Origin: a virus
Lineage: Duplodnaviria > Heunggongvirae > Uroviricota > Caudoviricetes
Virus record (IMG/VR): IMGVR_UViG_3300032007_000003
Location: 248,029 to 312,028 of that record
DNA: 64,000 nt
Strand: one strand, 5' to 3'
This document shows, piece after piece, positions 1,392 to 59,392 of the stretch. Position numbers and translations under genes: made by a program. Position 1 is the first letter of the stretch, and each line of letters opens with the position of its first letter. The notes beneath the pieces are model-generated. The model worked only from the letters and a program-made list of their open reading frames with translations, had not been told where the DNA came from and made no database searches.

Positions 1392-1470
1392 GGGAACACA
1401 CAGCAAGTATTTCTATTAACAAGTAATTAATTTTGGGTTTTAAGAGTACGGTTAAAAAATGTTCCCTTAT
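1392..1470 (+). ncRNA. motif-initiated structured element (GGGAACACACAGCAAGTAT...TGTTCCC-TT)
   Basis: The 5' 7 nt GGGAACA pair with the downstream TGTTCCC, which is followed by a U-tract. It is one member of a family of at least 11 elements. Confidence 0.35.
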
Positions 1471-2909: not shown

Positions 2910-2942
2910 CAAAGGAATCTTGCAGCAATAGGTATAAGCATC

Positions 2943-3011
2943 AGGCATGTAGCTCAATGGTTAGAGCCTTGGATTTTACCAAGAGATTAGGGTTCGACTC
3001 CCTACGTATCT
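2943..3011 (+). tRNA. tRNA-Lys(TTT)
   Basis: D-arm TAGCTCAATGGTTAGAGC. Anticodon stem CTTGG/CCAAG with loop ATTTTAC. T-arm TAGGGTTCGACTCCCTA. Confidence 0.65.
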
Positions 3012-3039
3012 TTGTTTAAAGGATTCCGATTTTTAACAT

Positions 3040-3129: not shown

Positions 3130-3167
3130 AAAAATTTGGAATTTAATTTTTTTTTGTATATCTTTGC
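3130..3167 (+). promoter_or_regulatory. conserved promoter copy upstream of the tRNA-like element
   Basis: AAAATTTGGAATTTAATTTTTTTTTTGTATATCTTTGCA. Confidence 0.5.
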
Positions 3168-3196
3168 AAAGTATTTCATAGGCAACAAATACTAAA

Positions 3197-3323
3197 GGAA
3201 ACATACAGCAAGTATTAATAGGTTATAGCATTAAACTGATAATTTAAGGGTCGTTGGTTCGAGTCCAACCCTCCCCACAAAAAATTAAACTTGGGGAGGT
3301 AGCTAAGATGGATAAATGTTTCC
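3197..3323 (+). ncRNA. permuted tRNA-like element (3' half Ile-GAT-like, then 5' acceptor, closed by GGAAACA...TGTTTCC)
   Basis: Order: motif GGAAACATACAGCAAGTAT; anticodon arm TTAAA-CTGATAA-TTTAA; T-arm GTTGGTTCGAGTCCAAC; 3' acceptor CCTCCCC. A 16-nt loop and the matching 5' acceptor GGGGAGG plus a D-arm-like TAGCTAAGATGG come next, before TGTTTCC. Confidence 0.35.
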
Positions 3324-3465: not shown

Positions 3466-4509
3466 TTGGTTGATTTTTATGAAAGTTCGGCTATATATTA
3501 TATAGAAATGTATAATTATATGGATGAATTAATAAGTAAAATCAGGAAAATGAAATTTGAACAAGGGTGTTCAAATTCTGATATTTCACTTGCGCTAGGT
3601 GTAACAATGGAGAAAATAAAAAGGGTTACTTGCAAGAGTTATGATGAAATACTCAAAAGAAAAGAAACAAAGGAAAAAGCAGAGGAAGAGTTTGTCGAAT
3701 TAGTCAAAAAATATCTTCCACTTTCAAACTCGTTAAATCATTTGTGTAATAACTTAGGTTTAAGAGGTGTGGATGGCTATTATAAGAAGTTAAAAAGAAT
3801 AATAAAAGAATATAACTTGTCAACAGAGCATTTTGGTAGTATTAAGCTATCTAATAATGGCGGTAGTAGAAATATGTACACTGCAATGTCTGATGACGAA
3901 TTCTTTGTAGAAAATTCTAATCGTTATGGAGCATCGATTATCAAAAGACTAGTAGATGGTGGCTATAAGGAATATAAATGCGAGGGAGAAAATTGTGGAA
4001 TTAACGAATGGAATGGAAAGCCATTAAGATTGCAAGTTCATCATATAAATGGAGACCATCACGATAATAGAATAGAAAATTTACAACTATTATGTCCTAA
4101 TTGCCATACACAAACAGATACTTATGCAAGAAACAATATTGCTAAAACAAATAGTTTTAAAATTACAGATAGGGTTAACGAAATATTAACTGGTTCTGAA
4201 AGTTCTTTTAAACCAAAAGATATTGAAGAAATAAAAAAGGAAATATTACCGCCAAAAGAAAAAAAATATTGTCAAAACTGTGGTAAAGAAATAAAAGGTG
4301 ATGGTGAAAAATATTGTTCTCCAGAATGTGCTGAAAAAGCTAGGAGAAAATTTGAAGTCACATCAGAGCAACTTATAAAGGATTTTAAAGAAATTAAGTC
4401 GTTTACTGGTGTTGGAAAAAAATACAATGTTAGTGATAATGCGATAAAAAGAAGAACCAAAAAACTTGGAATATATGATGAAATAAGGCAATTCATCACT
4501 CCAAGGTAA
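3466..4509 (+). CDS. HNH homing endonuclease (paralog 1)
   Basis: 'HHINGDHHDNRIENLQLLCPNCH' is an HNH motif. There are C-terminal CxxC pairs and an N-terminal HTH-like region. The true start is uncertain; the track starts at a TTG. Confidence 0.7.
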   Translation: MVDFYESSAIYYIEMYNYMDELISKIRKMKFEQGCSNSDISLALGVTMEKIKRVTCKSYDEILKRKETKEKAEEEFVELVKKYLPLSNSLNHLCNNLGLRGVDGYYKKLKRIIKEYNLSTEHFGSIKLSNNGGSRNMYTAMSDDEFFVENSNRYGASIIKRLVDGGYKEYKCEGENCGINEWNGKPLRLQVHHINGDHHDNRIENLQLLCPNCHTQTDTYARNNIAKTNSFKITDRVNEILTGSESSFKPKDIEEIKKEILPPKEKKYCQNCGKEIKGDGEKYCSPECAEKARRKFEVTSEQLIKDFKEIKSFTGVGKKYNVSDNAIKRRTKKLGIYDEIRQFITPR

Positions 4510-4868: not shown

Positions 4869-4957
4869 GGGAACTCACAGCAAGTTTAAAATGGATAATT
4901 TTTTATTTGACCAAAATGAAAATAGATAGTTCGAGCCTATCAAAGTTATAGTTCCCT
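4869..4957 (+). ncRNA. motif-initiated structured element with a T-arm-like hairpin
   Basis: GGGAACTCACAGCAAGTTT ... GATAG-TTCGAGC-CTATC ... TATAGTTCCC-TTTT. The terminal stem is GGGAACT/AGTTCCC. It is homologous to 39308-39414. Confidence 0.35.
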
Positions 4958-6404: not shown

Positions 6405-7091
6405 ATGAAAAAAGAAGATTTAAGGAAAACTATAAATAAAAGCATTGGAGAACAAAAAAAAATAATTGAAAGTACTAATTCTATTAGTTATGCTGCAAGA
6501 GAAATTTTAGGCACAGATAGCACACTTGCTAGAACTATAATTAAAGAAATATGTGAAGAACAAGGTTGGGATATACCAACTTGGTATAATAGGGTTAGAT
6601 ATTGTTTACATTGTGGAAAACCAATCATAGGTGGGGATAGTAAAAAGAAATTTTGTAATAGTTCTTGTGCAGCATCATATAATAATAAGTTAAGAAGTAC
6701 AAAAAAACACTATTGTATTAATTGTGGTAAAGAAATAAAACGAGGTAAATTTTGTAACAATACTTGTTGTGCAGAATATAATGCAAAACAATATATTGAA
6801 CGTTGGAAAAATGGGGAGGAAAATGGGTTGAGTGGCAAATATGGAATTTCGCAATATGTTAGACATTATATTTTTGAGAAAAATGATAATAAATGCGAGG
6901 TTTGTGGGAAAAGCTATATAAACCCATATACTGGATTATCTGTACTTCAGATTCATCACAAAGATGGAGATTGTACAAATAATAAGGAAGAGAATCTTCA
7001 ACTATTATGCCCAACGCATCATGCAATGACAGAAAACTTTGGAAGTAGAAATCCAAATGCAACTAGAAAGGATAATAGAATGAGATATTAA
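6405..7091 (+). CDS. HNH homing endonuclease (paralog 2)
   Basis: 'IHHKDGDCTNNKEENLQLLCPTHH' plus multiple CxxC zinc-finger pairs. Confidence 0.7.
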   Translation: MKKEDLRKTINKSIGEQKKIIESTNSISYAAREILGTDSTLARTIIKEICEEQGWDIPTWYNRVRYCLHCGKPIIGGDSKKKFCNSSCAASYNNKLRSTKKHYCINCGKEIKRGKFCNNTCCAEYNAKQYIERWKNGEENGLSGKYGISQYVRHYIFEKNDNKCEVCGKSYINPYTGLSVLQIHHKDGDCTNNKEENLQLLCPTHHAMTENFGSRNPNATRKDNRMRY

Positions 7092-7785: not shown

Positions 7786-7922
7786 GGAAACATCCAGCAA
7801 ATAAAGAGTTATTATTGTAAATTGCTACCGTAACGGTTTGTGGGTTCGACTCCCACACGTCTATCTTAACGAGGGCGTTGGTGAAATTGGTAAACACGGC
7901 TATTGGAGAATAAAATGTTTCC
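7786..7922 (+). ncRNA. permuted tRNA-like element (T-arm then a Leu/Ser-like 5' half; closed by GGAAACA...TGTTTCC)
   Basis: Motif variant GGAAACATCCAGCAAATAAAG, then T-arm TGTGGGTTCGACTCCCACA, then a type-II-like 5' half GAGGGCG-TT-GGTGAAATTGGTAAACAC, then AAAATGTTTCCG-TCTTTTT. Confidence 0.3.
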
Positions 7923-9073: not shown

Positions 9074-9688
9074 ATGAAATGGATAAATAAAAAAAATGAG
9101 TTAGAGCGTTTAATTAATATAGAGCATATTTCTTACGAAGAAATAGGTAGACGTTATGGTGTAAGTGGTCAAGCAGTAAAAAAAGCTGCTCAAAGGTTAG
9201 GAGTTGTAATTCCGCAAAGAAGAGAAATTAATCCAAATGAACATTTTAATAAAGGAACAGCAGAAACTACAAAATGTGTTGAATGTGGTCGTGAATTTAT
9301 AAAATATAAAAGTCATTATGGCAATTTTTGTTCAACAGAATGTGCAAGTAAATATAAACATAAAAAAGCCTATAAAGATTTCTTGGAAAATAATGAGAAA
9401 TATTGTAGGGCTAATTACACACCAAAAGCATTTAAAAAAGAAATATTAGAAGAACAAGGTGGCATTTGTCCATTGTGTAAAGGTAAACCATTTCATAATG
9501 GAAAACCATTGGTCTTTATATTAGACCATATTGATGGTAATGCTGCTAATAACAAAAGAGAAAATCTTAGAATGATTTGTCCAAATTGTGATAGCCAATT
9601 GCCAACTTACAAATCAAAAAATAAAAATGGAGCGAGAAGTTATTATCGCTATCACAAATATGATGAAAACACTAAGATAGGCAAATAA
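9074..9688 (+). CDS. HNH homing endonuclease (paralog 3)
   Basis: 'LDHIDGNAANNKRENLRMICPNCD'. The N-terminal HTH-like 'EIGRRYGVSGQAVKKAAQRLGV' is shared with paralog 4. Confidence 0.7.
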   Translation: MKWINKKNELERLINIEHISYEEIGRRYGVSGQAVKKAAQRLGVVIPQRREINPNEHFNKGTAETTKCVECGREFIKYKSHYGNFCSTECASKYKHKKAYKDFLENNEKYCRANYTPKAFKKEILEEQGGICPLCKGKPFHNGKPLVFILDHIDGNAANNKRENLRMICPNCDSQLPTYKSKNKNGARSYYRYHKYDENTKIGK

Positions 9689-9942: not shown

Positions 9943-10095
9943 AGGAACGTACAGCAATCATTTACTTATTTTAAAACATTGTATTAGATTCGTAAATGAA
10001 GATAAGCGAAGCACTAAATCATAATTGCGAGGCACTTATCTATGCTCTTAGGGGCGAATGTCTAGTCATGACAGTAAATTGACCGTTCCTTTTTA
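9943..10095 (+). ncRNA. motif-initiated structured element
   Basis: AGGAACGTACAGCAATCA ... CGTTCCT-TTTTAT. The terminal stem is AGGAACG/CGTTCCT, followed by a U-tract. Confidence 0.3.
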
Positions 10096-12537: not shown

Positions 12538-13137
12538 ATGAAAGTAGATTGGATTAATGAAAAAGAGACTCTTGAGAAACTTATAAAAGAAGGAGTACCA
12601 TATGAGCGTATTGGAAGACATTATGATGTGTCTGGAACTGCTGTTAAAAAAGCAGCAAAAAAATTGGGTATTGAACTTGAGCAGAAGCGAAAGATAAATC
12701 CTAATGAACATTTTAACAAGGGTACAAGTAAAGTTTGTTACTGTCTGAATTGCGGTAAAGAATTAAGTGGTTCACAAGTTAAATATTGTTCGAATGAATG
12801 CCAAATGGAATATCAAAAAACAAAAAAAATAAACGAATGGAAAGAGCATCCAGAAAGATTTTCATCAGAAAATGGGTATTCATTTATTAGAAATTATCTG
12901 TTAGAGAAGTATAACTATAAATGTGAAAAATGCGGTTGGAATGAAGAAAATCCATACACTCATTCAATACCATTAGAGGTTCATCACATAGATGGCGATT
13001 GCACAAATAATAGAGAAGAAAATCTCCAGTTATTATGCCCTAACCATCATTCTTTGACAGAAAATTTTGGTAGTAGAAATAAAAATAATAGCAAAAGATA
13101 TAAATTAATGGAATATAAAAGAAAATTACGTGAATAA
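12538..13137 (+). CDS. HNH homing endonuclease (paralog 4)
   Basis: 'VHHIDGDCTNNREENLQLLCPNHH'. The N-terminus is near-identical to paralog 3. Confidence 0.7.
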   Translation: MKVDWINEKETLEKLIKEGVPYERIGRHYDVSGTAVKKAAKKLGIELEQKRKINPNEHFNKGTSKVCYCLNCGKELSGSQVKYCSNECQMEYQKTKKINEWKEHPERFSSENGYSFIRNYLLEKYNYKCEKCGWNEENPYTHSIPLEVHHIDGDCTNNREENLQLLCPNHHSLTENFGSRNKNNSKRYKLMEYKRKLRE

Positions 13138-16573: not shown

Positions 16574-17491
16574 ATGAAACAATATAAATATAATTATTTC
16601 TACAGGATAGAAAATTTAATTGATGGTAAATTTTATTACGGAATCCACAGTACTGACAATATTGAAGATGGATATATGGGTTCTGGGCATCGTTTAGTAG
16701 AAGCGATGAAAATTTTTGGGAAAAATAATTTCAAAAAAGAGATATTAAAAAATTTTGAAACACGTGAGAAGGCTTCGGAATATGAGGCATTAATGGTGAC
16801 AGAAAATTTAGTTCACGATAGAAATTGTTATAACGTTAAATGTGGTGGCGATTATGGCACTACTAGTGGAACAATATTAGTAAAGGACAAAAACGGAAAA
16901 TGGTCTAGAGTGTCGGTTGAAGATGAACGTTATAAAAGTGGCGAACTAAAGAATATAATGGCTAGTTTAATATCAGTGTATGATAAAAAAGATAACGGTT
17001 ATAAGACAATAACACCAGACGAATTCCATAGCAATGGCGATAGATATATTGGGGTAACAAAAGGGAAAGTGGTTGTCAAGAATGACAAAGGTGAAATATT
17101 ACTTGTTGATGTTGAAGATGAACGTTATAAACGTGGTGAATTAACTGTGGTGTGGAAAGGAAAAAAACATTCAGAAGAAACAAAGATGAAAATTTCTGAG
17201 ACGCACAAAAGAAACCATCACCAACAAGGCGTAAGTAATTCACAATATGGAACGTGTTGGATAACAAAAAATGGAGAAAATAAAAAGGTAAAGAAAGAAG
17301 ATTTGAATATGTTTTTGTCTGATGGGTGGAAAAATGGTAGAAGTAATTTAAATGTTACAACACCTTCAGATTTAATAGATAAAAATAAAGTTATTAGTTT
17401 ATACAAGAAATATAATAATTGGGGTAAAGTCGCTGAAGAATTAGGAATTAGTAGAATGACAATAATGAGGTACAAGAAACGCAACCTATAA
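16574..17491 (+). CDS. GIY-YIG homing endonuclease with C-terminal HTH
   Basis: 'YFYRIENLIDGKFYYGIHS' is the GIY...YIG module. The C-terminal 'NWGKVAEELGISRMTIMRYKK' is HTH-like. Confidence 0.65.
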   Translation: MKQYKYNYFYRIENLIDGKFYYGIHSTDNIEDGYMGSGHRLVEAMKIFGKNNFKKEILKNFETREKASEYEALMVTENLVHDRNCYNVKCGGDYGTTSGTILVKDKNGKWSRVSVEDERYKSGELKNIMASLISVYDKKDNGYKTITPDEFHSNGDRYIGVTKGKVVVKNDKGEILLVDVEDERYKRGELTVVWKGKKHSEETKMKISETHKRNHHQQGVSNSQYGTCWITKNGENKKVKKEDLNMFLSDGWKNGRSNLNVTTPSDLIDKNKVISLYKKYNNWGKVAEELGISRMTIMRYKKRNL

Positions 17492-17627: not shown

Positions 17628-17754
17628 GGTGACGTAGCTCAGTCGGTAGAGCACTAAAAAATCAACGTGTTGCCTCGTGTGCGCAACCCACAGCAAATAT
17701 TATGATGAAAGGCTGTTAACCTAGGGGTCTGTGGTTCGAGTCCACACGTCACCG
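17628..17754 (+). tRNA. interrupted tRNA (about 55-nt insertion after the D-arm carrying the CCACAGCAAATAT motif)
   Basis: 5' GGTGACG-TA-GCTCAGTCGGTAGAGC and 3' TGTGGTTCGAGTCCACA-CGTCACC pair perfectly across 126 nt. An Asn-like CTGTTAA loop lies before the T-arm. Confidence 0.45.
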
Positions 17755-22418: not shown

Positions 22419-22551
22419 GGAAACAGACAGCAATGGTTATTTTTTAATAAGCCTTGTAAGCAGTAGGTCATGGGTTCAAATCCCATCGAGGGGTGTAAGC
22501 TCCTTGTAGCTCAGTCTGGTTTAGAGCAACTTAAAATGTTAAAAACGTTTC
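22419..22551 (+). ncRNA. permuted tRNA-like element (T-arm, 3' acceptor, then 5' acceptor plus D-arm; GGAAACA...CGTTTCC)
   Basis: GGAAACAGACAGCAATGG ... CATGGGTTCAAATCCCATC-GAGGGGT-GTAA-GCTCCTT-GTAGCTCAGTCTGGTTTAGAGC ... CGTTTCCG-ATTTTTAA. Confidence 0.3.
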
Positions 22552-22577
22552 CGATTTTTAATTAAAACGAAATAGCA

Positions 22578-23138
22578 ATGGCAGTAGGCGTAATTATCGC
22601 AAGACTTCAGCCAATTCATAAGGGACACCTTGAGTTGGTTAGACAAGCTCTTAATGAGAATGACGAGGTTCTTATCCTTGTTGGTTCAGCAGATAAACTG
22701 AATAAGCGTAATCCAATTCCTATCGCAATGCGTTTGGATTTGGCAAACAAGGCTATTACTGAGGAGTTTGGTGAGGACGCTGGCAAAGTTAAAGTAATGC
22801 CACTTAATGACCTTACAGATGAATCAGATAATTCTCATGATTGGGGTTTTTATCTTTACAGTCATATAGTTGGAATCACTAAGTCACCTGAATTCACTAT
22901 TTATTATTCAGATGGATTTGAGATTATCATGCAGTGGTTTCCTCCATTCATTACGAGAGACTTCGTTTCTTTCAAGTTGAATGCTAGAGGCGCAATCCAC
23001 AACAACTTGTCTGCCACAAAGGTAAGACAGATGATTCTCAAAGGTGATGAAGAGGCTCTTGCAGAAGCCGTACCAACTTGTGTCGCTGAGAATGCGATGA
23101 TATTGAAACATTTCATTGAAGCATTTCAAGATGTATGA
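22578..23138 (+). CDS. nicotinamide-nucleotide adenylyltransferase (NadM/NMNAT-like cytidylyltransferase fold)
   Basis: 'VGVIIARLQPIHKGHLELV' is the (H/T)xGH nucleotidyltransferase motif. The protein is 186 aa. Confidence 0.6.
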   Translation: MAVGVIIARLQPIHKGHLELVRQALNENDEVLILVGSADKLNKRNPIPIAMRLDLANKAITEEFGEDAGKVKVMPLNDLTDESDNSHDWGFYLYSHIVGITKSPEFTIYYSDGFEIIMQWFPPFITRDFVSFKLNARGAIHNNLSATKVRQMILKGDEEALAEAVPTCVAENAMILKHFIEAFQDV

Positions 23139-23565: not shown

Positions 23566-23984
23566 CAAACATAATGGGCTTGAAACGGTATAGATTGGCT
23601 GTAGTTTGGTAAGAGACAAGCAGTGGGCATACACTTTCAAATAGCAAAAAAATTAAACGCAGAGAACGTAGATTCTCCTGCTTACGAGTTCGCTATTGCA
23701 GCGTAAACGTGAGCCGAGAGGCTAGGCTCTTAGGAACAGAACATCCTAGCAAATTTTTTTTTGATTAGAAGAAAGGTTCCTGGTTCGAGACCTTGGGAGC
23801 ATTGCTTTAGTTCAAAACGCTTAGGTGTGTTGTAGCTGTTGACAGCTTGGTAGAACATTCTGATAATCAAATGGTGGAATCGGTGACTCTAGTCATCCCC
23901 TAGTGTAATGGCGATACACTTTAATAAAACGTTCTGAGGAAGAAAACCTCTTACCAAAAATTGAAAAGTTTGTATAATCTCTTA

Positions 23985-24027
23985 TGGGACGCAGAACAAG
24001 ACGTGGGTTCAACTCCCACCAGGTCCA
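23985..24027 (+). ncRNA. tRNA-like minihelix
   Basis: GGGAC-GCAGAACAAGA-CGTGGGTTCAACTCCCAC-CAGGTCC. Confidence 0.25.
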
Positions 24028-24045
24028 CTAACAATTAGTTACGTT

Positions 24046-24843: not shown

Positions 24844-24999
24844 ATGAAAAAAGTTCCTAAAAAATTTGGAATTCTCAAAAAAAAGATATATCTTTGCAAA
24901 GTTGGAACGAAATAAATGAGGAAACTAACAGCAAACATTTAAACATCAAACTGCTAATTTGAACAACGTTTAAAAAGTTTCCGTTTTATATATAATATC

Positions 25000-25070: not shown

Positions 25071-26164
25071 CAAATGTAACATAAATACTCAGGTGCAATC
25101 GGTAGTAAAGGTTGGCGAGGAAAGTGAGGTTGCGACAAACATACAACCGTATGAAATAAAGCGGATGTCCTTTACCATTAAATTGGTTCTGTAAAATGAA
25201 TCAGCCTTTACAATGTTACATACAATATACTTGGAAGATACCAGAGGAGAAACGGTAGTGTAACAACTAACGGTGTAGACAAATGGGCATCAAGTTCGTG
25301 CTTAGTGTGCTCTTTCGAGAGCTTCGGTGATTCAAATTCACCTCGTTCAACAACTCTCACATTGTAGGCTTCGGCTGAAAATGAGGAGTTTGGCTAGCTT
25401 TCGTAGCCAAATGAAGGATAATCCAGTGATGGGATTAAATGTGATGTGAAGTTGACCATAGTAGCATTACAGATATGTAGGGGCAACCCTATGTATTTCA
25501 CTGAAAAGCATATGGCACGGTCTACATTGGGGGTAACACCTTGGATGTAGGCTCTCAAGGGCTGAATGTCTTTGAGTGAGTGGTAACACAATAGATTGTC
25601 ATATGGAACTTGATGCAATAATCACCAGTTGGCGTGTTGGGTTCAGTTATGTGCTAGTCTTAAGTAGAAATGCTTGAGAACCGTAAGGCTGATAGTATGT
25701 AATAGCAATTGGACTTGTGGTGAGTCTTTGTAGGGAGGCGATTTCGTGGGTCGTGCTCAAAAGGCACGAATGCGATGGGTCGCACCTCGTCTTCCAATGG
25801 TCGCAGAAAAGGTTTGAAATTAATAGGGTTCAAAAGTTTACAAAGCAAAAGTGTGCGACACTAGGCAGCTAAAATGCACTTATCCTTCTGCAATATGAAG
25901 GGGTTGGGGACTCGCAAGGAATCCAACAAGAGAGTAAAAGTACTCGTCTGAGTTAGTAGGAGGCATCCTATGAATCCGCAAGAGCTTGGCGAAGAACTGA
26001 AATCTATGATGCTGTACCGAAAGGTTTAAACTAGTAAGTGTTTGGTTGTTTTCGCAAAACCTCCGTGCATGGTGTCTACGGCTATCGTAAGGTAGCGTGT
26101 GAACAACAACGTCCAACCGTTGTGAAATGGCATCAACAATAAGACAATGTTCTCAGTCTTTTTG

Positions 26165-26297
26165 TGTTTATATAGGGATATAGCTCAGTGGTAGAGTAAT
26201 TTTGTTGCGATTTAAGCTATACACAATACTAACTTCGGAACGTATTGATGCTTTAACTGATAATGAAACGGTCATTGGTTCGAATCCAGTTGTCCCT
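26165..26297 (+). tRNA. interrupted tRNA-Ile(GAT)-like (about 53-nt insertion between the D-arm and anticodon stem)
   Basis: 5' AGGGATA-TA-GCTCAGTGGTAGAGT; 3' TTTAA-CTGATAA-TGAAA-CGGTC-ATTGGTTCGAATCCAGT-TGTCCCT. The acceptor pairs across 133 nt. Confidence 0.4.
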
Positions 26298-26459
26298 GCG
26301 TACCGTGATTATGATGCTTCCACGTATGATAAGCATCTTACTTATTATAGTAGGTTAACATGCTATAGTAGATTGGAGAAGTTTTGGCTACTAATTGTGG
26401 CTAGTAAAATGAAAGTTTTCATCCAATCGTTTTTTATACGGCTTAATATTTAATTATAT

Positions 26460-27386: not shown

Positions 27387-27440
27387 GGAAGCTCACAGCA
27401 ATATTATATAGATTGCAACTCTAGGTTTAACATAGCTTCC
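27387..27440 (+). ncRNA. motif-initiated hairpin element
   Basis: GGAAGCTCACAGCAATATT ... AGCTTCC-GCTTTTT. The terminal stem is 7 bp. Confidence 0.3.
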
Positions 27441-28380: not shown

Positions 28381-28456
28381 TGGGCATATGGCAGAGTGGT
28401 CGATTGCAACGGCTTCTAGGACCGTAAAAGGCGTGGGTTCGAATCCTACTATGCTC
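28381..28456 (+). tRNA. candidate amber-suppressor tRNA (anticodon CTA)
   Basis: Acceptor GGGCATA/TATGCTC. D-arm GGCAGAGTGGTCGATTGC. The anticodon stem ACGGC/ACCGT (C-A mismatch at 31-39) with loop TTCTAGG gives CTA. An alternative is a 4-bp stem with the 9-nt loop CTTCTAGGA. T-arm GTGGGTTCGAATCCTAC. Confidence 0.4.
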
Positions 28457-28840
28457 ACTACGGCTTGGCGTACCCATATTGGGTGCTGAAATAGGTTAGA
28501 CAAGCACAAGCCACGTAAGAAATGGCAGACATGCAGTAATGCGGTGCGAGGATTAGTCCCTTGCCCTAGTTCCTTGATGGTTAAGAGGATACCTTTATGG
28601 TTGGTATAGGCAAACCTATTTTATGTTATGGCAAGCGAAAATAAAAAGAAAAAAGCAAAGAATTCTTATTTAGCCAATGCTAATAAGACTACTGATAAAT
28701 TGAAGAGAATTAACTTTTACAATAAGATAAATAGAGCAGAAAATAAGTGTAAAGTTAAGGATTGTTAAAGTTGAATTAATCATTTGGTTGGTTCAACTTT
28801 TTTTCGTATCTTTACATCAGAAATTTAAAAACAAGGAAAT

Positions 28841-29857: not shown

Positions 29858-30349
29858 ATGGAAATAGAAGAATTGGCAAAGAGAGTAGCGTTTGCTCTTA
29901 TGGATAAGAACTATAAGATTGCAACTGCTGAAGAGTGTACTGCTGGACTTGTTGGCGCTGCTATTGCAAGTCAAGACTATGCTCAGAGGTGGTATAAGGG
30001 TACTATTGTTACATATGATGAAGCTAGTGCTTGTAAAGTTTTAGAAGTTCAAGACTACACCATTAAAAGGAATGACTTTGTTAGCACTCAAGTGGTGAGT
30101 CAAATGGCATTAACAACATTATATAGGTTTGATGTAAATATTGCATTGGCAATTAATGGGTATGTTGATGGATATGGAAGTACCAATGTTCCAGCTGGGG
30201 ATGTACAAATCTGTGTAGCAAAATTAGTTGGAAAATCAGTGTCTTTCAAAAATAAGAAGCTGTTAGTTAGAGGAAAGGATAGAGGGAAGAATATTGAAGA
30301 AGCAATTAAGGAGGCTCTTATCCTTATAATGGAATCAATTGTAGATTAA
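29858..30349 (+). CDS. CinA C-terminal domain protein (PncC-like NMN deamidase)
   Basis: 'IATAEECTAGLVGAAIAS ... GTIVTYDEASACKVL ... VVSQMA' matches the CinA_C pattern (AESCTGG...G.V.YS...VS..A). Confidence 0.55.
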   Translation: MEIEELAKRVAFALMDKNYKIATAEECTAGLVGAAIASQDYAQRWYKGTIVTYDEASACKVLEVQDYTIKRNDFVSTQVVSQMALTTLYRFDVNIALAINGYVDGYGSTNVPAGDVQICVAKLVGKSVSFKNKKLLVRGKDRGKNIEEAIKEALILIMESIVD

Positions 30350-30350
30350 T

Positions 30351-30734
30351 ATGGAAGGTTGCGCATTTTGTGATATAGAGAAAAGAATAGATGAATCGAG
30401 AATAATATATCAAGATTCAACTTGGATTGCGATATTAGATGGGTATCCAGTTTCAGAGGGGCATACATTATTAATACCAAAGAGACATTGTGAAACATAT
30501 TTTGATTTAAATTATCTTGAACTTGAATCTCTTGGCGTAACAATTGGTATTGTTAAAAGACTATTGGATACCAAATACCATCCAAATGGATATAATGTGG
30601 GAGTTAACTGTGGTGAGGCTGCTGGTCAAACCATCATGCATTGTCATGTACATATCATACCACGTTATAATGGTGATTGCGAAAATCCTAGAGGTGGTGT
30701 CAGAGGTGTTATACCAAATAAGATGTCATATTAG
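30351..30734 (+). CDS. HIT-family nucleotide hydrolase
   Basis: The histidine triad 'HCHVHIIPR' and an upstream 'HTLLIPKRH'. Confidence 0.65.
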   Translation: MEGCAFCDIEKRIDESRIIYQDSTWIAILDGYPVSEGHTLLIPKRHCETYFDLNYLELESLGVTIGIVKRLLDTKYHPNGYNVGVNCGEAAGQTIMHCHVHIIPRYNGDCENPRGGVRGVIPNKMSY

Positions 30735-32992: not shown

Positions 32993-33129
32993 GTGCGGTT
33001 CGTCTAGTGGTTCAGGACAACGTTTAAAAAAGTTTTTTAACGTTTCCGTTAGGAAATAGACAGCAGATGTATTATTGAAAAATTATGCATTCCAAGCCGT
33101 AAACAGAGGTTCGAATCCTCTACCGCACT
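32993..33129 (+). tRNA. interrupted tRNA (Glu-like D-arm; about 70-nt insertion with ...CGTTTCC-GTTA-GGAAATAGACAGCAG...)
   Basis: 5' GTGCGGT-TC-GTCTAGTGGTTCAGGAC; 3' AGAGGTTCGAATCCTCT-ACCGCAC. The acceptor pairs perfectly. The insertion holds a hairpin and the motif pair. Confidence 0.4.
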
Positions 33130-39087: not shown

Positions 39088-39199
39088 AGGGAGATAGTGT
39101 AACGGTAACACGCTGTAGTTTCCGTTACCTTTGAGGTAACATTACAGCAGTCGTTAGGAAAATAGCTTGTGGTGCCAGTATTGGAGGTTCGAATCCTTC
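39088..39199 (+). tRNA. interrupted tRNA (insertion carrying TTTCCGTTACC-TTTGA-GGTAACATTACAGCAG)
   Basis: 5' AGGGAGA-TA-GTGTAACGGTAACAC; 3' GGAGGTTCGAATCCTTC-TCTCCCT. The acceptor is perfect. GCTGT...ACAGC flank the inserted hairpin. Confidence 0.35.
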
Positions 39200-39212
39200 T
39201 CTCCCTACAAAA

Positions 39213-39307: not shown

Positions 39308-39414
39308 GGGAACTTACAGCAAGTATAACTCGTGAAGGAATGGTCTACTTGAAAGTCTAGAAAACTTTTGCGCATTTGCGCTTGTGGGTTCGAATCCCAC
39401 CGACTATAGTTCTC
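39308..39414 (+). ncRNA. motif-initiated tRNA-like element (type-II-like)
   Basis: GGGAACTTACAGCAAGTATAA ... AAAGT-CTAGAAA-ACTTT ... GCGCATTTGCGC ... GTGGGTTCGAATCCCAC-CGACTAT-AGTTCTC-GTTTT. Confidence 0.3.
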
Positions 39415-41018: not shown

Positions 41019-41573
41019 ATGGATAAGAAATTGGTTAACCAACCTTGTTATGACAAAGAAGGAAACCTTATTGGGTGGTTTAGCCGTTCAATGGCATCTG
41101 CAATCTTCATCTATTGTAGAGACAAAGATGGCGATTGGTGTGTTCTTGCGTCAGAACGAGGTGAAGAAGCTGCTGATTTTAGAGGCTTTTGGAATTGCAC
41201 ATGTGGTTATTTAGATTTTAATGAAACAACCAAAGATTGTGCAATGAGAGAACTTTATGAGGAAACTGGACTTCTTATAGATGAAGGGTTAGTTAAACTA
41301 GTAGGTTATGAGGACAGCCCAGAAGCTAACAGACAGAATGTCACATTCCGTTTTGCAGCTTTCATTGAGGATGCTATTACAGATGAATTTACATTCTCTA
41401 GGAAGAATAACGAAGGAAAAGAAGTTGGAGAGATTAAGTGGATTAAAATGTCAGATGTTGATAAATACATGTGGGCATTTAACCATGATAAGCGTATTAA
41501 GGAAATCTTTGAAACTAGAGAGGTGAAACCCACATTGGTTGATAAGTTAAAGCGTTGGATTAGAAACAAGTAA
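41019..41573 (+). CDS. Nudix hydrolase
   Basis: The Nudix box 'GGYLDFNETTKDCAMRELYEETGL' fits GX5EX7REUXEEXGU. Confidence 0.65.
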   Translation: MDKKLVNQPCYDKEGNLIGWFSRSMASAIFIYCRDKDGDWCVLASERGEEAADFRGFWNCTCGYLDFNETTKDCAMRELYEETGLLIDEGLVKLVGYEDSPEANRQNVTFRFAAFIEDAITDEFTFSRKNNEGKEVGEIKWIKMSDVDKYMWAFNHDKRIKEIFETREVKPTLVDKLKRWIRNK

Positions 41574-56302: not shown

Positions 56303-57697
56303 ATGGAATTATTCAAAGAAGATAAACATAAAAAGCTTTTAAAGAAGTTACAAGATTGCATTAAGGGCACTGCATTTGAAAATAACGTCTATCTTGTAGG
56401 TGGTTGTGTGAGAGACGCTTTGCTAAATGAACCCATTAAGGATTTTGATATTGTGGTATCAATAAAAAATGGTGGCATTATGCTTGCTAACCTATTGGCT
56501 GCAAAGGAAAAGTGCTATAAATTGGGTAGCAATCCAGTGGTATATCCCAAATACGGTACTGCAAAGGTTACTCTGTATAATGATGAAGACCTTAAGGACT
56601 TGGACATTGAGTTTGTTCAGACTCGTAAGGAGCAATATCATGAGGATAGTAGAAATCCAGAACAAGTATTTGGTACAGTTGAAGAGGATGCAAAACGCAG
56701 AGATTTAACCATCAATTCATTGTATTATAATATAAGTGATGAAAAGATATATGATTTTAACTTAGGTATTGATGACTTGGTTAATCAAGTTATTAAAACA
56801 CCGACTGACCCAGATATCACATTCAATGATGACCCATTACGTATATTGAGGGTTATCAGATTCTCTTGTCGTTATGGATGGGGTATTGAAAAGAATACTT
56901 GGTTAGGTATGGTTAAGAATGCTCATCGTATTAAAATTATCTCACAAGAGAGAATCACTGATGAAATTTCAAAGATTATAACTAGTCCAAACCCTTCAGT
57001 TGGTATAAGGAAAATGTTGTTCTGTGGTCTTCTGAATAAGGTGATGCCAGACATATATGACTTAACCAATGCATATGAATCAAGGAATCCAATGCTAACG
57101 TCATTTGACCATACCATGATGGTTCTTGATAAGGTACAGCCTTATATTGAGACTAGATTGGCTGCGTTATTCCATGATGTTGGTAGAATCGCAAGTGAAG
57201 CCAATAGAGGAATCTCACAAGATTTGTTTAGTGCTGATGTGGCTGTTTGTGACTTGAAACTCATGAAGTTCCCAAATGCAATAGCAGATTCTGTTGAGAA
57301 TTCAATTAAGTATCATAGATTCTTTAGAAACTATGCTGATGGTACTGTTCCACCAGATAAGAAGATAAGAAAGTTCATCAACTTATGTGGTGACAACATT
57401 GGGAACGTTGTTGACTTGATGAATGCCAACAACTTGTGTCAAACTTATGACAAGAAAAAGAGACAAGCATTGGACATTCTGAATAGGATTGAAGAACTTG
57501 ATGAGCTTGAAGAGGCTAAGAATGTTAAACTACCCATCGATGGAAAAGATATCATGAAGGAGTTTAATCTTAAGTCTGGACCTCATATTGGTAAACTTAT
57601 GGATTGTTTGAAGGAAGCTTACTTTGATAATCCTAAAATTACTAAAGAAGAGTGCTTTAAGTTGATAGAGGAAAAGATAAAGGTCTTGGCGGTATGA
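56303..57697 (+). CDS. cca: CCA-adding tRNA nucleotidyltransferase with HD domain
   Basis: 'VYLVGGCVRDALLNEPIKDFDIVV' is the class-II nucleotidyltransferase head. An 'LFHDVGR' HD motif is present. Confidence 0.75.
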   Translation: MELFKEDKHKKLLKKLQDCIKGTAFENNVYLVGGCVRDALLNEPIKDFDIVVSIKNGGIMLANLLAAKEKCYKLGSNPVVYPKYGTAKVTLYNDEDLKDLDIEFVQTRKEQYHEDSRNPEQVFGTVEEDAKRRDLTINSLYYNISDEKIYDFNLGIDDLVNQVIKTPTDPDITFNDDPLRILRVIRFSCRYGWGIEKNTWLGMVKNAHRIKIISQERITDEISKIITSPNPSVGIRKMLFCGLLNKVMPDIYDLTNAYESRNPMLTSFDHTMMVLDKVQPYIETRLAALFHDVGRIASEANRGISQDLFSADVAVCDLKLMKFPNAIADSVENSIKYHRFFRNYADGTVPPDKKIRKFINLCGDNIGNVVDLMNANNLCQTYDKKKRQALDILNRIEELDELEEAKNVKLPIDGKDIMKEFNLKSGPHIGKLMDCLKEAYFDNPKITKEECFKLIEEKIKVLAV

Positions 57698-58093: not shown

Positions 58094-58669
58094 ATGGGAA
58101 GAAAAATTTTAATTATCGTTGATGGTCAATACAGCTTTATTGAGGGTGGCTCTTTAGCAGTAGAGGGGGGCAGAAAAGCATTAGATAATCTTGTAGAGTT
58201 CATAAAGAACCATTATAAAGAATATGATGGTATATTCTTAACTGCCGATTGGCATCCAATTACCCACTGTTCTTTCAAAGATAACGGTGGTATCTGGCCT
58301 CCTCACTGTGTACAGTTCTCACAAGGTGCAGCGATATATCAACCAATTCTTGATGTATTAGATGAATTAAGGATTGATTATGATGTTCTCACCAAGGGTT
58401 GTGATGAAGACCATGAAGAGTATTCAATCTTCAAGAATGTTACTTCTGAGGCATACCTTAAGGCAATGAATAAACACAATGAGATTGGGGTTGTTGACAT
58501 TGCTGGAATTGCTGGTGATTATTGTGTCCTTGATACAATAAAGGATGGACTCATGGAATTTCCAAATACTGAGTTCCATGTTATCAATGAGTGTGTTGCA
58601 TCCATTGATGGTGGAGCAACTTTAAGTAAATTCGTTGATGAAAACGAGAGAGTATTATGGCACGAATAG
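58094..58669 (+). CDS. pncA: nicotinamidase / isochorismatase-family hydrolase (PncA-like)
   Basis: 'ILIIVDGQYSF', 'TADWHPITHCSF' and 'WPPHCVQFSQGAAI' match PncA signature blocks. Confidence 0.7.
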   Translation: MGRKILIIVDGQYSFIEGGSLAVEGGRKALDNLVEFIKNHYKEYDGIFLTADWHPITHCSFKDNGGIWPPHCVQFSQGAAIYQPILDVLDELRIDYDVLTKGCDEDHEEYSIFKNVTSEAYLKAMNKHNEIGVVDIAGIAGDYCVLDTIKDGLMEFPNTEFHVINECVASIDGGATLSKFVDENERVLWHE

Positions 58670-58916: not shown

Positions 58917-59392
58917 TGGAGAAATTAACATTAGATGTATTTAAGCATTTTAGGTTCTTCTTGAAAAAGAACAAGATATATGACCTATTTATGCGGAATT
59001 TCAGAAGCCAACCATATGAGAAGATTCATAATGTAGATGCATTCTTACCTAATTACATAAACATAATGAGAGAGTATTCTACAACACGTATGGGTAAAGA
59101 ATATCTCAGTGTATATGGAGCGATGTATCTAACGTTTAGGTCTTTTTGTTGGGCGAATAGAGCAGCATATAAGACACCAAATTCATGGAGCAAGTATTGG
59201 GCTACTATTTGTTTAAAATGGGCACTATATTGCATTAGGCATAATATTGAGATATGCACAGACGAAGACCTTGGCAGACTTATAGAATATTGGGATTCAT
59301 GCAAGTGGATTGACATAAGCAAATTATCATTTCAAGATAGAATAGTTATACAACAATTAAAGTGTAAACACAATAATGGAGACATATACTAA
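58916..59392 (+). CDS. hypothetical protein
   Basis: 158-aa ORF. Confidence 0.4.
   Translation: MEKLTLDVFKHFRFFLKKNKIYDLFMRNFRSQPYEKIHNVDAFLPNYINIMREYSTTRMGKEYLSVYGAMYLTFRSFCWANRAAYKTPNSWSKYWATICLKWALYCIRHNIEICTDEDLGRLIEYWDSCKWIDISKLSFQDRIVIQQLKCKHNNGDIY

What the first reader, a model, noticed from the sequence alone, without database searches (positions are those of the whole stretch)
3197..3323. tRNA halves in apparently circularly permuted order, closed by a conserved GGAAACA...TGTTTCC stem
At 3197-3323 the sequence holds a tRNA 3' half: anticodon arm TTAAA-CTGATAA-TTTAA, variable loop, T-arm GTTGGTTCGAGTCCAAC and 3' acceptor CCTCCCC. The matching 5' acceptor GGGGAGG and a D-arm-like stretch follow it, separated by a 16-nt loop. 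The whole unit is bracketed by GGAAACA (the start of the recurrent motif) and its complement TGTTTCC, then a U-tract. The same architecture recurs at 22419-22551: T-arm, GAGGGGT, GTAA, GCTCCTT plus D-arm GCTCAGTCTGGTTTAGAGC, then CGTTTCC. A looser version lies at 7786-7922. This resembles permuted tRNA genes that are processed through a circular intermediate. That would be unexpected in a phage, and an RNA ligase gene (59376-60323) sits in the same window. The alternative is rearranged pseudogene debris.
Basis: partly seen in the sequence, partly recalled or inferred. Interest (0 to 1): 0.85.

Follow-up and report, generated by a model that had tools for sequence, protein, structure and literature searches.

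The report
Permuted tRNA look-alike: phage Y-like RNA
The flagged stretch really is a tRNA-shaped RNA gene with its two halves in swapped order. It belongs to a large, apparently undescribed family of phage small RNAs that share a conserved "handle" and sit next to genes for a Ro60-like protein, so it is more likely a Y-RNA-type tRNA mimic than a working tRNA gene.

Summary
Observation confirmed. Window 3197-3323 encodes a complete tRNA-Ile-like cloverleaf in circularly permuted order. The acceptor stem is capped by a 16-nt loop. The RNA ends leave the D loop as a 7-bp clamp (GGAAACA/TGTTTCC) followed by UA-CAGCAA. Eight orthologues keep all 28 pairs, with compensatory changes in the anticodon, T and acceptor stems. 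It is not debris.

It is one of at least 10 open-handle RNAs and 4 un-permuted twins (open acceptor, closed handle) in this window. The family extends across rumen, marine and other phage contigs.

The archaeal/algal route (BHB motif, splicing endonuclease, circular intermediate) is not supported. There is no BHB, the anticodons drift among orthologues, canonical isoacceptors exist, and some members carry only an anticodon-like hairpin or a UUCG-capped acceptor.

The architecture matches YrlA-type Y RNAs (Rfam YrlA 30-44 bits, below the gathering score). Handle RNAs lie directly upstream of DUF2828+vWA genes in 6 of 6 independently sampled phage loci. That protein models as a Ro60 fold: the top six PDB matches are all Ro60/TROVE. 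The source genome encodes it 12.3 kb upstream of the window, with RtcB in between.

Best reading: a new Y-RNA-like family. Binding and function remain inferred.

The parts
3161..3171 (+). Promoter-like motif TCTTTGCAAAG (Bacteroidota-type -7 box TAnnTTTG), 26 nt upstream of the element
   Evidence: The motif (allowing one mismatch) occurs 11 times in the window against 2.15 expected, and 0 of 100 shuffles reach 11. The same motif precedes the element at 24920 and the DUF2828 genes of relatives. Promoter function is inferred.
3197..3203 (+). Handle, 5' strand GGAAACA. It pairs with 3317-3323.
   Evidence: it forms in the MFE structure. The stem co-varies across the family, with at least 12 stem types each matched by its own complement.
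3204..3212 (+). Conserved single-stranded handle motif TA-CAGCAA-G. This is the candidate protein-binding site.
   Evidence: Family logo: A9 is 92% conserved without being required by the search; CAGCAA was required. The same motif follows unrelated stem sequences (AGRCNCN) next to DUF2828 genes.
3226..3229 (+). D-stem 3' strand TAGC, preceded by GGTTA (G18 G19 .. A21-like). It pairs with GCTA at 3302-3305.
   Evidence: Paired in 31 of 31 cells across orthologues, but invariant (helix 2).
3231..3247 (+). Anticodon arm TTAAA-CTGATAA-TTTAA (GAU, Ile-like)
   Evidence: Two compensatory pairs (TTTGA/TCAAA in L096). The loop differs among orthologues.
3248..3269 (+). Variable loop GGGTC plus T arm GTTGG-TTCGAGT-CCAAC
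   Evidence: Rfam tRNA partial hit at 3212-3270, 31.3 bits, model positions 7-64. Two compensatory pairs in the T stem.
3270..3299 (+). Closed acceptor-like hairpin: CCTCCCC, a 16-nt loop ACAAAAAATTAAACTT, then GGGGAGG
   Evidence: Three pairs change on both sides among orthologues (CCTCCCC/GGGGAGG, TCACGCT/GGCGTGA, TCACGCC/GGTGTGA, TCACATC/GGTGTGA). The loop begins N73-C74 like the 3' trailers of the phage's real tRNAs.
3300..3316 (+). U8-A9, D-stem 5' strand GCTA, and D-loop part AGATGGATAAA
   Evidence: The closest canonical tRNA in the window is tRNA-Phe at 11706, which has the same D-arm type.
3317..3323 (+). Handle, 3' strand TGTTTCC
1392..1466 (+). Family member, open handle (GGGAACA/TGTTCCC), with no tRNA-like core
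2914..3027 (+). Family member whose handle (GGAATC/GATTCC) frames a whole tRNA-like unit with a 6-nt anticodon loop (2943-3012)
4869..4956 (+). Family member: open handle, hairpin and T arm
7786..7922 (+). Family member, permuted tRNA-like (T arm, closed acceptor, class-II-type D arm).
9943..10090 (+). Family member with a long, conserved interior that is not tRNA-like (AGGAACG/CGTTCCT handle)
22419..22552 (+). Family member, permuted tRNA-Thr(UGU)-like with junction at 29/30.
   Evidence: Rfam YrlA hit of 29.5 bits.
24920..24982 (+). Family member: handle plus an anticodon-stem-loop-like hairpin only
27387..27440 (+). Smallest family member in the window (54 nt; GGAAGCT/AGCTTCC)
39308..39414 (+). 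Family member: open handle, hairpins and T arm
17628..17754 (+). Un-permuted twin: tRNA-Asn(GUU)-like with a closed handle (GTTGC-loop-GCAAC-CCA-CAGCAA) inserted in the anticodon-stem 5' strand
   Evidence: Rfam tRNA hit of 47.1 bits over 127 nt. The orthologue in L002 has a compensatory GTTAC/GTAAC stem.
26174..26298 (+). tRNA-Ile(GAU)-like with a 52-nt insert after the D arm (a degenerate closed handle), directly after a GOLLD-like RNA
32993..33129 (+). Un-permuted twin: open acceptor GTGCGGT/ACCGCAC, D arm, closed handle GTTTCC-gtta-GGAAAT-aga-CAGCAG, T arm
   Evidence: After rotation it aligns collinearly with open-handle homologues.
39088..39207 (+). Un-permuted twin: acceptor AGGGAGA/TCTCCCT, closed handle GTTACC-tttga-GGTAAC-atta-CAGCAG

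Best explanation
Window 3197-3323 is a roughly 127-nt small-RNA gene. It belongs to a widespread phage family built from two modules.

**Module 1, the constant handle.** The RNA's own 5' and 3' ends pair in a 7-bp clamp. On the 5' strand the clamp is followed by the single-stranded motif (U)A-CAGCAA. On the 3' strand it is preceded by an A-rich tract.

**Module 2, the variable cargo.** It is derived from tRNA. Here it is a complete tRNA-Ile-like cloverleaf in circularly permuted order. The acceptor stem is closed by a 16-nt loop and the D loop opens into the handle.

**Proposed working.**
1. The RNA is transcribed with the neighbouring tRNAs. A promoter-like box lies 26 nt upstream.
2. Its ends are set by ordinary tRNA end-processing of its neighbours. 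RNase P at tRNA-Pro (3330) would set the 3' end.
3. It folds into an L-shaped tRNA look-alike.
4. The acceptor loop may additionally be nicked by RNase P and completed to CCA, as shown for M. smegmatis YrlA. That would give a two-piece RNA held together by the handle.
5. The handle docks a Ro60-fold protein (DUF2828 + vWA). The source genome encodes this protein 12.3 kb upstream of the window, on the same strand, with RtcB in between.
6. The tRNA-like module presents a tRNA shape to tRNA-recognising factors.

The element is therefore a Y-RNA-like (YrlA-like) tRNA mimic, not a decoding tRNA gene that needs a circular splicing intermediate.

**Shown:** the fold and its covariation; the family; both circular permutations; the genomic linkage to DUF2828 genes; the Ro60 fold of the model.

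**Inferred:** transcription, end processing, protein binding, and the biological role (RNA surveillance or repair, or bait for tRNA-targeting nucleases).
For: **Fold.** 28 pairs are 100% paired in 8 orthologues, with 7 double-sided changes. 0 of 500 shuffles reach this.

**Handle stem.** It co-varies family-wide: 72 of 167 against 2.9 expected.

**Closed acceptor hairpin.** 60 of 75 elements have 7/7 pairs against a 1.5% control rate, with 46 distinct stems.

**Both permutations exist in one subfamily.** The window carries 32993-33129 with a closed handle and open acceptor. Relatives carry the open-handle, closed-acceptor form. Further un-permuted twins lie at 17628, 39088 and 26174.

**Spread.** Members occur in rumen, marine (TARA) and other metagenomes, and in MAG contigs.

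**Layout equals YrlA.** The layout is a terminal stem with a 5'-strand motif, then T arm, closed acceptor, D arm. Rfam YrlA is the only non-tRNA family that hits members repeatedly, at 29.5-44 bits. The best E-value is 1.5e-6 in a 55-kb search. Family features are taken from PMC4201824.

**Linkage to DUF2828 genes.**
- In handle-selected loci, DUF2828 genes lie within 0.1-0.4 kb of handle RNAs (L224, L311, L266, L091).
- In 6 of 6 DUF2828 loci chosen from protein hits alone, 3-8 handle RNAs fill the intergenic space directly upstream on the same strand. There are 41 hits on the gene strand against 4 on the other.

**Ro60 fold.** The DUF2828+DUF7788 model (pLDDT 82, pTM 0.72) has as its six best PDB matches only Ro60/TROVE structures, aligned over the full length. 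These are 9KOP (E=1.2e-9, TM 0.55), 9L5Y, 2NVO, 9NFA and 1YVP. The following hits match only the vWA domain. A sequence profile also ranks Ro60 first.

**Source genome.** The source contig itself encodes the protein at contig positions 227,752-229,425, which is window -13,982 to -12,309. RtcB lies at window -5,655 to -4,297.
Against: - There are no expression, end-mapping or binding data.
- In this genome the Ro60-like gene is 15.5 kb from the element. It is not within 4 kb, as is usual for YrlA.
- The YrlA motif GNCGAAN0-1G is absent; the handle has ACAGCAA instead.
- All YrlA hits are below the gathering score of 69, and the flagged element itself gets no YrlA hit.
- DUF2828 genes, handle RNAs and tRNA arrays all co-localise. 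Linkage could therefore partly reflect a shared "tRNA neighbourhood".
- The cargo has a canonical 7-nt anticodon loop. 39 of 43 long acceptor loops keep the N73-C74 trailer signature of real tRNAs (p=4e-35). This fits continued tRNA-type processing and leaves room for aminoacylation.
Confidence: 0.6

Rival explanations
1. It is a true circularly permuted tRNA gene. The handle would act as a splice signal. It would be excised, the ends joined by RtcB or the Rnl-type ligase into a circular intermediate, the acceptor loop opened by RNase P and 3' trimming, and CCA added. The product would be a decoding tRNA-Ile(GAU).
For: - A complete cloverleaf with covariation in three stems.
- A canonical anticodon loop.
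- The junction lies in the D loop, like type I permuted tRNAs of C. merolae.
- Long acceptor loops look like trailer plus leader of real tRNAs.
- Un-permuted twins carry the handle as an intron-like insert.
- RtcB, RNA ligase and CCA-adding enzyme are encoded nearby.
Against: - There is no bulge-helix-bulge motif. The junction is an unbroken 7-bp helix.
- No splicing endonuclease was seen in the window.
- There is no conserved exon boundary.
- The anticodon differs among near-identical orthologues (GAU, AAU, CAU, UUAUGGU).
- The element is redundant with canonical tRNA-Ile(GAU) at 23491, and the same holds for the Thr and Asn twins.
- Many members cannot give a tRNA: some carry only an anticodon-like hairpin, and some acceptors are capped by UUCG or 4-nt loops.
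- Handle sequence conservation and the linkage to a Ro60-fold gene are unexplained by this model.
Confidence: 0.15
2. It is a two-piece functional tRNA. RNase P and CCA addition would open the acceptor loop, and the two chains would stay together through the handle, as in two-piece tmRNA from permuted ssrA genes. The RNA would then be aminoacylated and used, or would otherwise act through a charged CCA end.
For: - A 7-bp acceptor stem, which is the feature that makes M. smegmatis YrlA an RNase P substrate in vivo.
- The N73-C74 signature is present in 39 of 43 long loops.
- A phage CCA-adding enzyme lies at 56303-57697.
- The un-permuted twins have free acceptor ends.
Against: - Orthologues of this very element have loops of 4-9 nt (ATTA, ACTAGATT). 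Other members have UUCG or TACC caps, so an open CCA end is not required by the family.
- A helix protruding from the D loop or anticodon stem should hinder ribosome use (inference).
- The Rfam tmRNA_permuted hit is only 20.8 bits against a gathering score of 47, and there is no tag reading frame.
Confidence: 0.12
3. It is rearranged tRNA pseudogene debris, or a small mobile or terminator cassette whose inverted ends happen to flank tRNA fragments.
For: - tRNA arrays here are highly dynamic and full of HNH and GIY-YIG genes.
- A decayed copy exists at about 16429.
- Many copies end in a T-run.
Against: - Compensatory changes occur in all variable stems, and 100% pairing is kept in orthologues.
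- The clamp co-varies instead of being a fixed terminal repeat.
- The family is conserved from rumen to marine phages.
- The flagged copy has no T-run.
Confidence: 0.04

Closest known systems
YrlA-type bacterial/phage Y RNAs bound by Ro60 (Rsr) (Chen et al. 2014, PMC4201824; Rfam RF02553)
   Same: - A terminal stem made by the 5' and 3' ends, with a conserved 5'-strand motif.
- A tRNA-like domain in the order T arm, closed acceptor-like stem, D arm.
- Several different RNAs per genome sharing the protein-binding module.
- Co-transcription with tRNAs.
- Linkage on the same strand to a Ro60-fold gene and to RtcB, as in the Salmonella rsr-yrlBA-rtcBA operon.
- A 7-bp acceptor, as in M. smegmatis YrlA, which is cut by RNase P and receives CA.
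   Different: - The motif is ACAGCAA, not GNCGAAN0-1G.
- The partner is a DUF2828+DUF7788 protein rather than a Pfam-TROVE Ro60.
- There are many copies per genome (at least 14 in 40 kb here), embedded in tRNA arrays.
- Cargoes include full cloverleaves with anticodon arms, anticodon hairpins alone, and non-tRNA inserts.
- Both circular permutations occur.
- Rfam scores are below the gathering threshold.
Circularly permuted tRNA genes of red/green algae and Thermofilum pendens (Soma 2014, PMC3978253)
   Same: - The 3' half lies upstream of the 5' half.
- An intervening sequence closes the acceptor stem.
- The junction is in the D loop (type I) or the anticodon stem.
- A complete cloverleaf can be reconstituted.
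   Different: - No BHB motif and no known splicing endonuclease.
- The host is a bacteriophage.
- The anticodon is not conserved.
- A conserved sequence-specific handle replaces the BHB.
- Family members exist that cannot become tRNAs.
Two-piece tmRNA from permuted ssrA genes (Rfam RF04321)
   Same: It is a bacterial precedent for a permuted tRNA-like gene. The acceptor-closing segment is removed, and the two chains stay paired without ligation.
   Different: There is no mRNA-like tag module. The Rfam hit is only 20.8 bits. The window has its own one-piece tmRNA at 23576-24030.

Membership tests
Circularly permuted tRNA genes (Soma type) | The 3' half lies upstream of the 5' half, linked by an intervening sequence that closes the acceptor stem. 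The halves rebuild a full cloverleaf. | tested here: met
   Sequence. 28 pairs are 100% paired with 7 compensatory pairs. ARAGORN calls the un-permuted constructs tRNA-Ile(gat), but 65 of 200 shuffled controls also pass, so that test is weak.
Circularly permuted tRNA genes (Soma type) | Leader and trailer form a bulge-helix-bulge motif (3-nt bulge, 4-bp helix, 3-nt bulge) at the junction. | tested here: not met
   The junction is an uninterrupted 7-bp helix followed by an asymmetric loop in all 88 curated copies.
Circularly permuted tRNA genes (Soma type) | tRNA splicing endonuclease and ligase are available. | tested here: inconclusive
   No endonuclease family appeared in any + strand ORF of at least 70 aa in the window. 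Ligases are present: RNA_ligase at 59376-60323 and RtcB upstream. The rest of the 412-kb genome was not scanned.
Circularly permuted tRNA genes (Soma type) | A circular RNA intermediate and an aminoacylated mature tRNA. | not testable with these tools
   This needs RNase R +/- sequencing, RT-PCR across the junction, and acid-gel Northern blots.
YrlA / Y RNA | A stem formed by the 5' and 3' ends, plus a tRNA-like domain (T arm, closed acceptor-like stem, D arm). | tested here: met
   The core aligns to the YrlA model.
YrlA / Y RNA | The Ro60-binding motif GNCGAAN0-1G near the 5' end. | tested here: not met
   The family consensus is GGRAACN-(U)A-CAGCAA. Next to DUF2828 genes it is AGRCNCN-(U/A)A-CAGCAA.
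YrlA / Y RNA | Reaches the Rfam RF02553 gathering score of 69 bits. | tested here: not met
   Members score 29.5-44 bits. There is no YrlA hit for 3197-3323 itself.
YrlA / Y RNA | Encoded within about 4 kb of a Ro60 (TROVE) gene on the same strand. | tested here: inconclusive
   - There is no Pfam-TROVE gene in the window.
- A Ro60-fold DUF2828+vWA gene lies 15.5 kb upstream on the same strand in the source contig.
- In 6 of 6 other lineages the handle RNAs directly abut that gene.
- The Ro60 fold is supported by Foldseek.
YrlA / Y RNA | Bound by the Ro60 protein. | not testable with these tools
   This needs RIP or EMSA with the DUF2828 protein.
tRNA (Rfam RF00005) | A contiguous cloverleaf scoring over the gathering threshold along the full model. 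| tested here: not met
   Only a partial hit at 3212-3270, model positions 7-64, 31.3 bits. ARAGORN finds nothing in the native order.
Two-piece (permuted) tmRNA | A tRNA-like domain from permuted pieces, plus a tag-encoding mRNA-like domain. | tested here: not met
   RF04321 gives 20.8 bits against a gathering score of 47, covering only the T arm and acceptor. There is no tag module.

The most novel reading that the evidence does not exclude
The handle RNAs and the DUF2828 (Ro60-fold) protein may form a widespread, undescribed phage ribonucleoprotein system. Dozens of permuted or handle-tagged tRNA look-alikes with drifting anticodons would be displayed on a Ro60-like ring. Two roles are possible. 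They could serve as baits or sponges for host anticodon nucleases and other tRNA-targeting defences. Alternatively they could serve as guides or substrates for an RtcB-coupled tRNA repair and quality-control machine. A subset, including 3197-3323, might be opened at the acceptor loop into CCA-ended two-piece tRNAs.
Probability: 0.2. Interest if true: 0.9.

Novelty: new variant of a known kind. Interest (0 to 1): 0.8.

Why it matters
- It would be the first natural case of circularly permuted tRNA-shaped genes in bacteriophages. Both permutations of one RNA occur side by side, which shows permutation by duplication in action.
- It gives a concrete, testable RNA partner and a Ro60-like function to DUF2828+DUF7788. 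This is a very large family of unknown function, with more than 7,900 hits at E<=1e-10.
- It extends the Ro60-Y RNA principle (constant protein handle, variable effector module, tRNA mimicry, RtcB neighbourhood) to a second protein family. It also places that principle in phage tRNA arrays, which are currently discussed as counter-defence loci.
- It warns annotators that tRNA scanners miss these genes, or mislabel them as long, "intron-containing" or odd tRNAs.

Tried and rejected
- **ARAGORN on un-permuted constructs.** All six were called tRNA, but 65 of 200 constructs with a shuffled 5' half also passed. This is only weak support.
- **GGAAACA heptamer count.** Not significant on its own.
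- **T-arm pattern scan of viral contigs.** Far too generic. It mostly found ordinary tRNAs and wasted one scan.
- **Generic search for closed-handle hairpins with 5-6 bp stems.** Swamped by chance hits. Only hand-checked cases were kept.
- **Table of anticodon-like loops.** ASL-like hairpins occur in 79 of 192 members against 34 in shuffles. The enrichment is too weak for any statement on which anticodons are mimicked.
- **All-against-all clustering of flanking ORFs.** It recovered mainly clade-specific HNH, OmpA and NMNAT genes and no partner. The DUF2828 link appeared only when ORFs from distant lineages were read.
- **Single-sequence phmmer of DUF2828 against PDB.** No Ro60 hit. The profile and the fold search were needed.
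- **Pfam and PDB searches of the large unannotated window proteins.** No Ro60-like protein.
- **Ideas considered for the handle and dropped.**
  - Sigma-54 promoter: the spacing is wrong, and the 3' complement co-varies.
  - CRISPR-repeat or RNA anti-CRISPR mimic, K-turn, loop E: the defining residues are absent.
  - Retron-like ncRNA: no reverse transcriptase in the window, though one DUF2828 locus (L377) has an RVT_1 gene next door.
  - Known self-cleaving ribozymes: no Rfam hit at E<=5.
- **Megablast of 12 kb against the phage collection.** No match.
Full report
**What is at the coordinates.**

The window is part of a 412,231-bp phage-like contig (ENA ERZ27256887 k141_847008). ARAGORN finds 42 tRNA genes on the + strand, all within the first 40 kb, and Rfam adds a tmRNA.

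- GGAAACA, then TA-CAGCAAG
- 14 nt ending in GGTTA
- TAGC (D-stem 3' strand), then A
- TTAAA-CTGATAA-TTTAA (anticodon arm)
- GGGTC (variable loop)
- GTTGG-TTCGAGT-CCAAC (T arm)
- CCTCCCC, a 16-nt loop, GGGGAGG
- TA-GCTA-AGATGGATAAA
- TGTTTCC

Only the "U-tract" is wrong for this copy. It is followed by GAAAAT and then tRNA-Pro at 3330.

ARAGORN sees no gene here in the native order. Rfam tRNA gives a partial hit (3212-3270, model positions 7-64, 31.3 bits). The minimum-free-energy fold contains the clamp, the T arm and the capped acceptor.

**It is one member of a family.**

All copies lie on the + strand. The window holds at least ten elements that start with GGRAAYN-NA-CAGCAA and end with the complement of their own first seven bases. 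Their starts are 1392, 2914, 3197, 4869, 7786, 9943, 22419, 24920, 27387 and 39308.

The clamp co-varies: GGGAACA/TGTTCCC, GGAAGCT/AGCTTCC, AGGAACG/CGTTCCT, GGAATC/GATTCC. I ran an unbiased test on everything fetched. Of 167 distinct 5'-motif hits, 72 had their own perfect 7-nt complement within 220 nt downstream. The mean was 2.9 (maximum 7) for the complement of another member's stem.

The interior is variable. It can be:
- an anticodon-stem-loop-like hairpin alone (52-68 nt)
- hairpins plus a T arm
- a T arm, closed acceptor hairpin and D arm
- a whole tRNA-like unit
- a longer insert that is not tRNA-like

The 3' side of the loop is A-rich, and most copies end in G/T plus a T-run.

**The permuted cloverleaf is under selection.**

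Seven orthologues of the flagged element were found in related phage contigs. More appeared in metagenomes.

On the eight-sequence alignment A1, I counted the structure I specified: clamp, split D stem, anticodon stem, T stem and acceptor stem.
- It is 100% paired in 223 cells.
- Seven pairs change on both sides (two in the anticodon stem, two in the T stem, three in the acceptor stem).
- No shuffle out of 500 reaches the observed values.
- Sliding the partners drops pairing to 34-54%.

Acceptor versions include CCTCCCC/GGGGAGG, TCACGCT/GGCGTGA, TCACGCC/GGTGTGA and TCACATC/GGTGTGA. The closing loop ranges from 4 to 17 nt.

Family-wide, I took 75 elements anchored only by a T loop and a D-arm motif. 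Of these, 60 have 7/7 and 7 have 6/7 acceptor pairs. The 7/7 rate is 1.5% when strands are swapped. There are 46 different stems.

A genuinely decayed copy does exist near 16429.

The second site, 22419-22552, is a complete permuted tRNA-Thr(UGU)-like cloverleaf. After the D arm come A27-C28-U29. The handle intervenes. Then come G30-C31, CUUGUAA, GC and AGU. 7786-7922 is also a member.

**Both circular permutations occur.**

The window also contains un-permuted twins, with an open acceptor end and the handle closed by a short loop:
- 32993-33129: GTGCGGT/ACCGCAC acceptor, with GTTTCC-gtta-GGAAAT-aga-CAGCAG
- 39088-39207: GTTACC-tttga-GGTAAC-atta-CAGCAG
- 17628-17754: tRNA-Asn(GUU)-like, with GTTGC-loop-GCAAC-CCA-CAGCAA in the anticodon-stem 5' strand. 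A relative has the compensatory GTTAC/GTAAC.
- 26174-26298: a degenerate case

When rotated in silico, 32993-33129 aligns collinearly with open-handle homologues of the same "GCATTCCAAGC" subtype in relatives.

Long acceptor loops look like a tRNA trailer followed by a leader. 39 of 43 loops longer than 10 nt have C at position 2 (N73-C74), p=4e-35. This matches the phage's real tRNAs, almost all of which are followed by N73-C-(A/T)-A. That fits an origin by tandem duplication. It is also compatible with RNase P and CCA processing.

Short loops, however, are plain caps (UUCG, TACC, GTTATC, TGTAAG, ATTA). Some of these occur in orthologues of the flagged element itself. The family therefore does not need an open CCA end.

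**Why it is probably not a decoding permuted tRNA gene.**

Defining features of algal and archaeal permuted tRNA genes are a BHB motif at the junction, cleavage by the splicing endonuclease, and a circular intermediate (PMC3978253). Against that model here:
- The junction is an unbroken 7-bp helix with an asymmetric loop.
- No such endonuclease appeared in Pfam scans of all + strand ORFs of at least 70 aa.
- Close orthologues differ in the anticodon loop: CUGAUAA, CUAAUAA, UUCAUAA, UUAUGGU, CUAGGGG.
- Canonical tRNA-Ile(GAU), Thr(UGU) and Asn(GUU) genes are present.
- Many members could never give a tRNA.

**What it resembles.**

The only non-tRNA Rfam family that hits members repeatedly is YrlA (RF02553).
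- 29.5 bits at 22440-22549.
- 30-44 bits for members from other metagenomes. The best is L278 722-829, at 44 bits and E=1.5e-6.
- All hits are below the gathering score of 69.
- The aligned part is the tRNA-like core, not the Ro60-binding stems.

Chen et al. 2014 (PMC4201824) define YrlA by four features:
- a 5' GNCGAAN0-1G motif
- a tRNA-like domain in the order T arm, acceptor-like stem-loop, D arm
- location within about 4 kb of Ro60 on the same strand
- several Y RNAs per genome sharing the Ro-binding module

M. smegmatis YrlA has a 7-bp acceptor. It is cut by RNase P and receives CA in vivo.

**The protein link.**

No TROVE protein is encoded in the window.

Reading ORFs next to handle RNAs in distant lineages revealed DUF2828+DUF7788 (vWA) proteins. 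They lie 0.1-0.4 kb from handle RNAs in L224, L311, L266 and L091. A miniature handle sits in the 5' UTR in L016 and L017.

I then reversed the test. Six DUF2828 proteins were taken from a protein search and located on contigs.
- In all six loci, the intergenic 0.1-1.8 kb directly upstream of the gene, on the same strand, carries 3-8 handle RNAs.
- Their clamp sequences are unrelated (AGRCNCN), but the (U/A)A-CAGCAA motif is the same.
- They include permuted tRNA-like and closed-handle forms.
- There are 41 hits on the gene strand against 4 on the other.

tRNA arrays are also nearby, so a three-way neighbourhood cannot be fully separated.

An AlphaFold model of one member (pLDDT 82, pTM 0.72) has as its six best PDB matches only Ro60/TROVE structures, aligned over the full length:
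- Thermus phage phiLo Ro60: 9KOP (E=1.2e-9, TM 0.55) and 9L5Y
- D. radiodurans Rsr: 2NVO
- human Ro60: 9NFA
- Xenopus Ro: 1YVP

The hits that follow match the vWA domain only. A sequence profile also ranks Ro60 first, weakly (E=0.038).

The source contig itself encodes this protein (557 aa) at 227,752-229,425. That is window -13,982 to -12,309, on the same strand. The two 412-kb relatives have it in synteny. RtcB lies at window -5,655 to -4,297. The order Ro60-like gene, RtcB, tRNA-mimic RNAs recalls the Salmonella rsr-yrlBA-rtcBA operon (my own knowledge).

**Conclusion.**

The best-supported reading is that 3197-3323 is a Y-RNA-like tRNA mimic. The handle is the docking module for the DUF2828-type Ro60 paralogue. 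The permuted tRNA-Ile-like body is the effector module. The break in the chain can sit at either end of the structure.

Transcription, processing, binding and biological role are inferred. A functional split or spliced tRNA remains possible for a subset.

I found no paper in the held library that links DUF2828 to Y RNAs, or that describes permuted tRNA-like genes in phages. Absence from that library is not proof of novelty.

Noticed in passing
window 25733-26159: GOLLD-like RNA (RF02032, 79.1 bits, E=5e-19, below the gathering score of 150). It lies immediately upstream of the odd insert-bearing tRNA-Ile-like gene at 26174-26298.
   Followed up: no
window 23576-24030: Phage-encoded one-piece tmRNA (RF00023, 56.9 bits), directly after tRNA-Ile(GAU). 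Relatives carry it too, with the tag peptide ...SPAYEYAIAA.
   Followed up: no
window 28382-28458: Suppressor tRNA with anticodon CUA (ARAGORN labels it 'Pyl'), conserved in relatives. This hints at TAG recoding in part of the genome. ORFs in this window read well with the standard code.
   Followed up: no
window 2943-3012 (inside 2914-3027): A tRNA-like unit with a 6-nt anticodon loop (AUUUUA), framed by a GGAATC/GATTCC handle. It scores 45.6 bits on Rfam tRNA and is conserved in relatives.
   Followed up: partly
L016 18246-18300, L017, L364 4935-4976: Miniature handles (5-7 bp clamp plus CAGCAA or CAGCAT) sit in the 5' UTR, 25-70 nt before the DUF2828 start codon. This could be autoregulation of the protein by a mimic of its RNA ligand.
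   Followed up: no
source contig upstream of the window (L351, L381): The gene order upstream of the tRNA array is: sigma-70 factor, DUF2828 (Ro60 fold), tyrosyl-tRNA synthetase, NAD synthase, radical SAM, RtcB, SSB, TelA.
   Followed up: partly
window 22578-23138, 29858-30734, 41019-41573, 58094-58669, 61860-63104: An NAD+ salvage and repair set: NMN adenylyltransferase-like, CinA, HIT, NUDIX, isochorismatase and NAPRTase. A NADAR gene lies downstream in L001.
   Followed up: no
window 3466-4509, 6405-7091, 9074-9688, 12538-13137, 16574-17491: Four HNH and one GIY-YIG homing-endonuclease-like genes are interspersed in the tRNA/handle array. HNH was the commonest neighbour of handle RNAs within this clade (39 of 99 loci).
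   Followed up: partly
window 9943-10090; L007, L012, L049 (148-173 nt): A handle subfamily (AGGAACG/CGTTCCT) with a long interior that is conserved but not tRNA-like (GAAGCGTTAAT..CGAAAGGGGCGTGA..). It matches no Rfam family.
   Followed up: no
window 3161, 10943, 11339, 24891, 34936, 41988, 45819: A recurrent TCTTTGCAAAG box (Bacteroidota-type -7 element). It occurs 11 times against 2.15 expected, and also precedes the DUF2828 gene in relatives.
   Followed up: partly
L377 3324-4358: A reverse transcriptase gene (RVT_1) lies immediately upstream of the handle-RNA cluster and the DUF2828 gene in one lineage.
   Followed up: no
L364/L365 2228-3133: A sigma-54 activator-type AAA+ protein (RtcR-like domain set) lies 2 kb upstream of a DUF2828 gene.
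   Followed up: no
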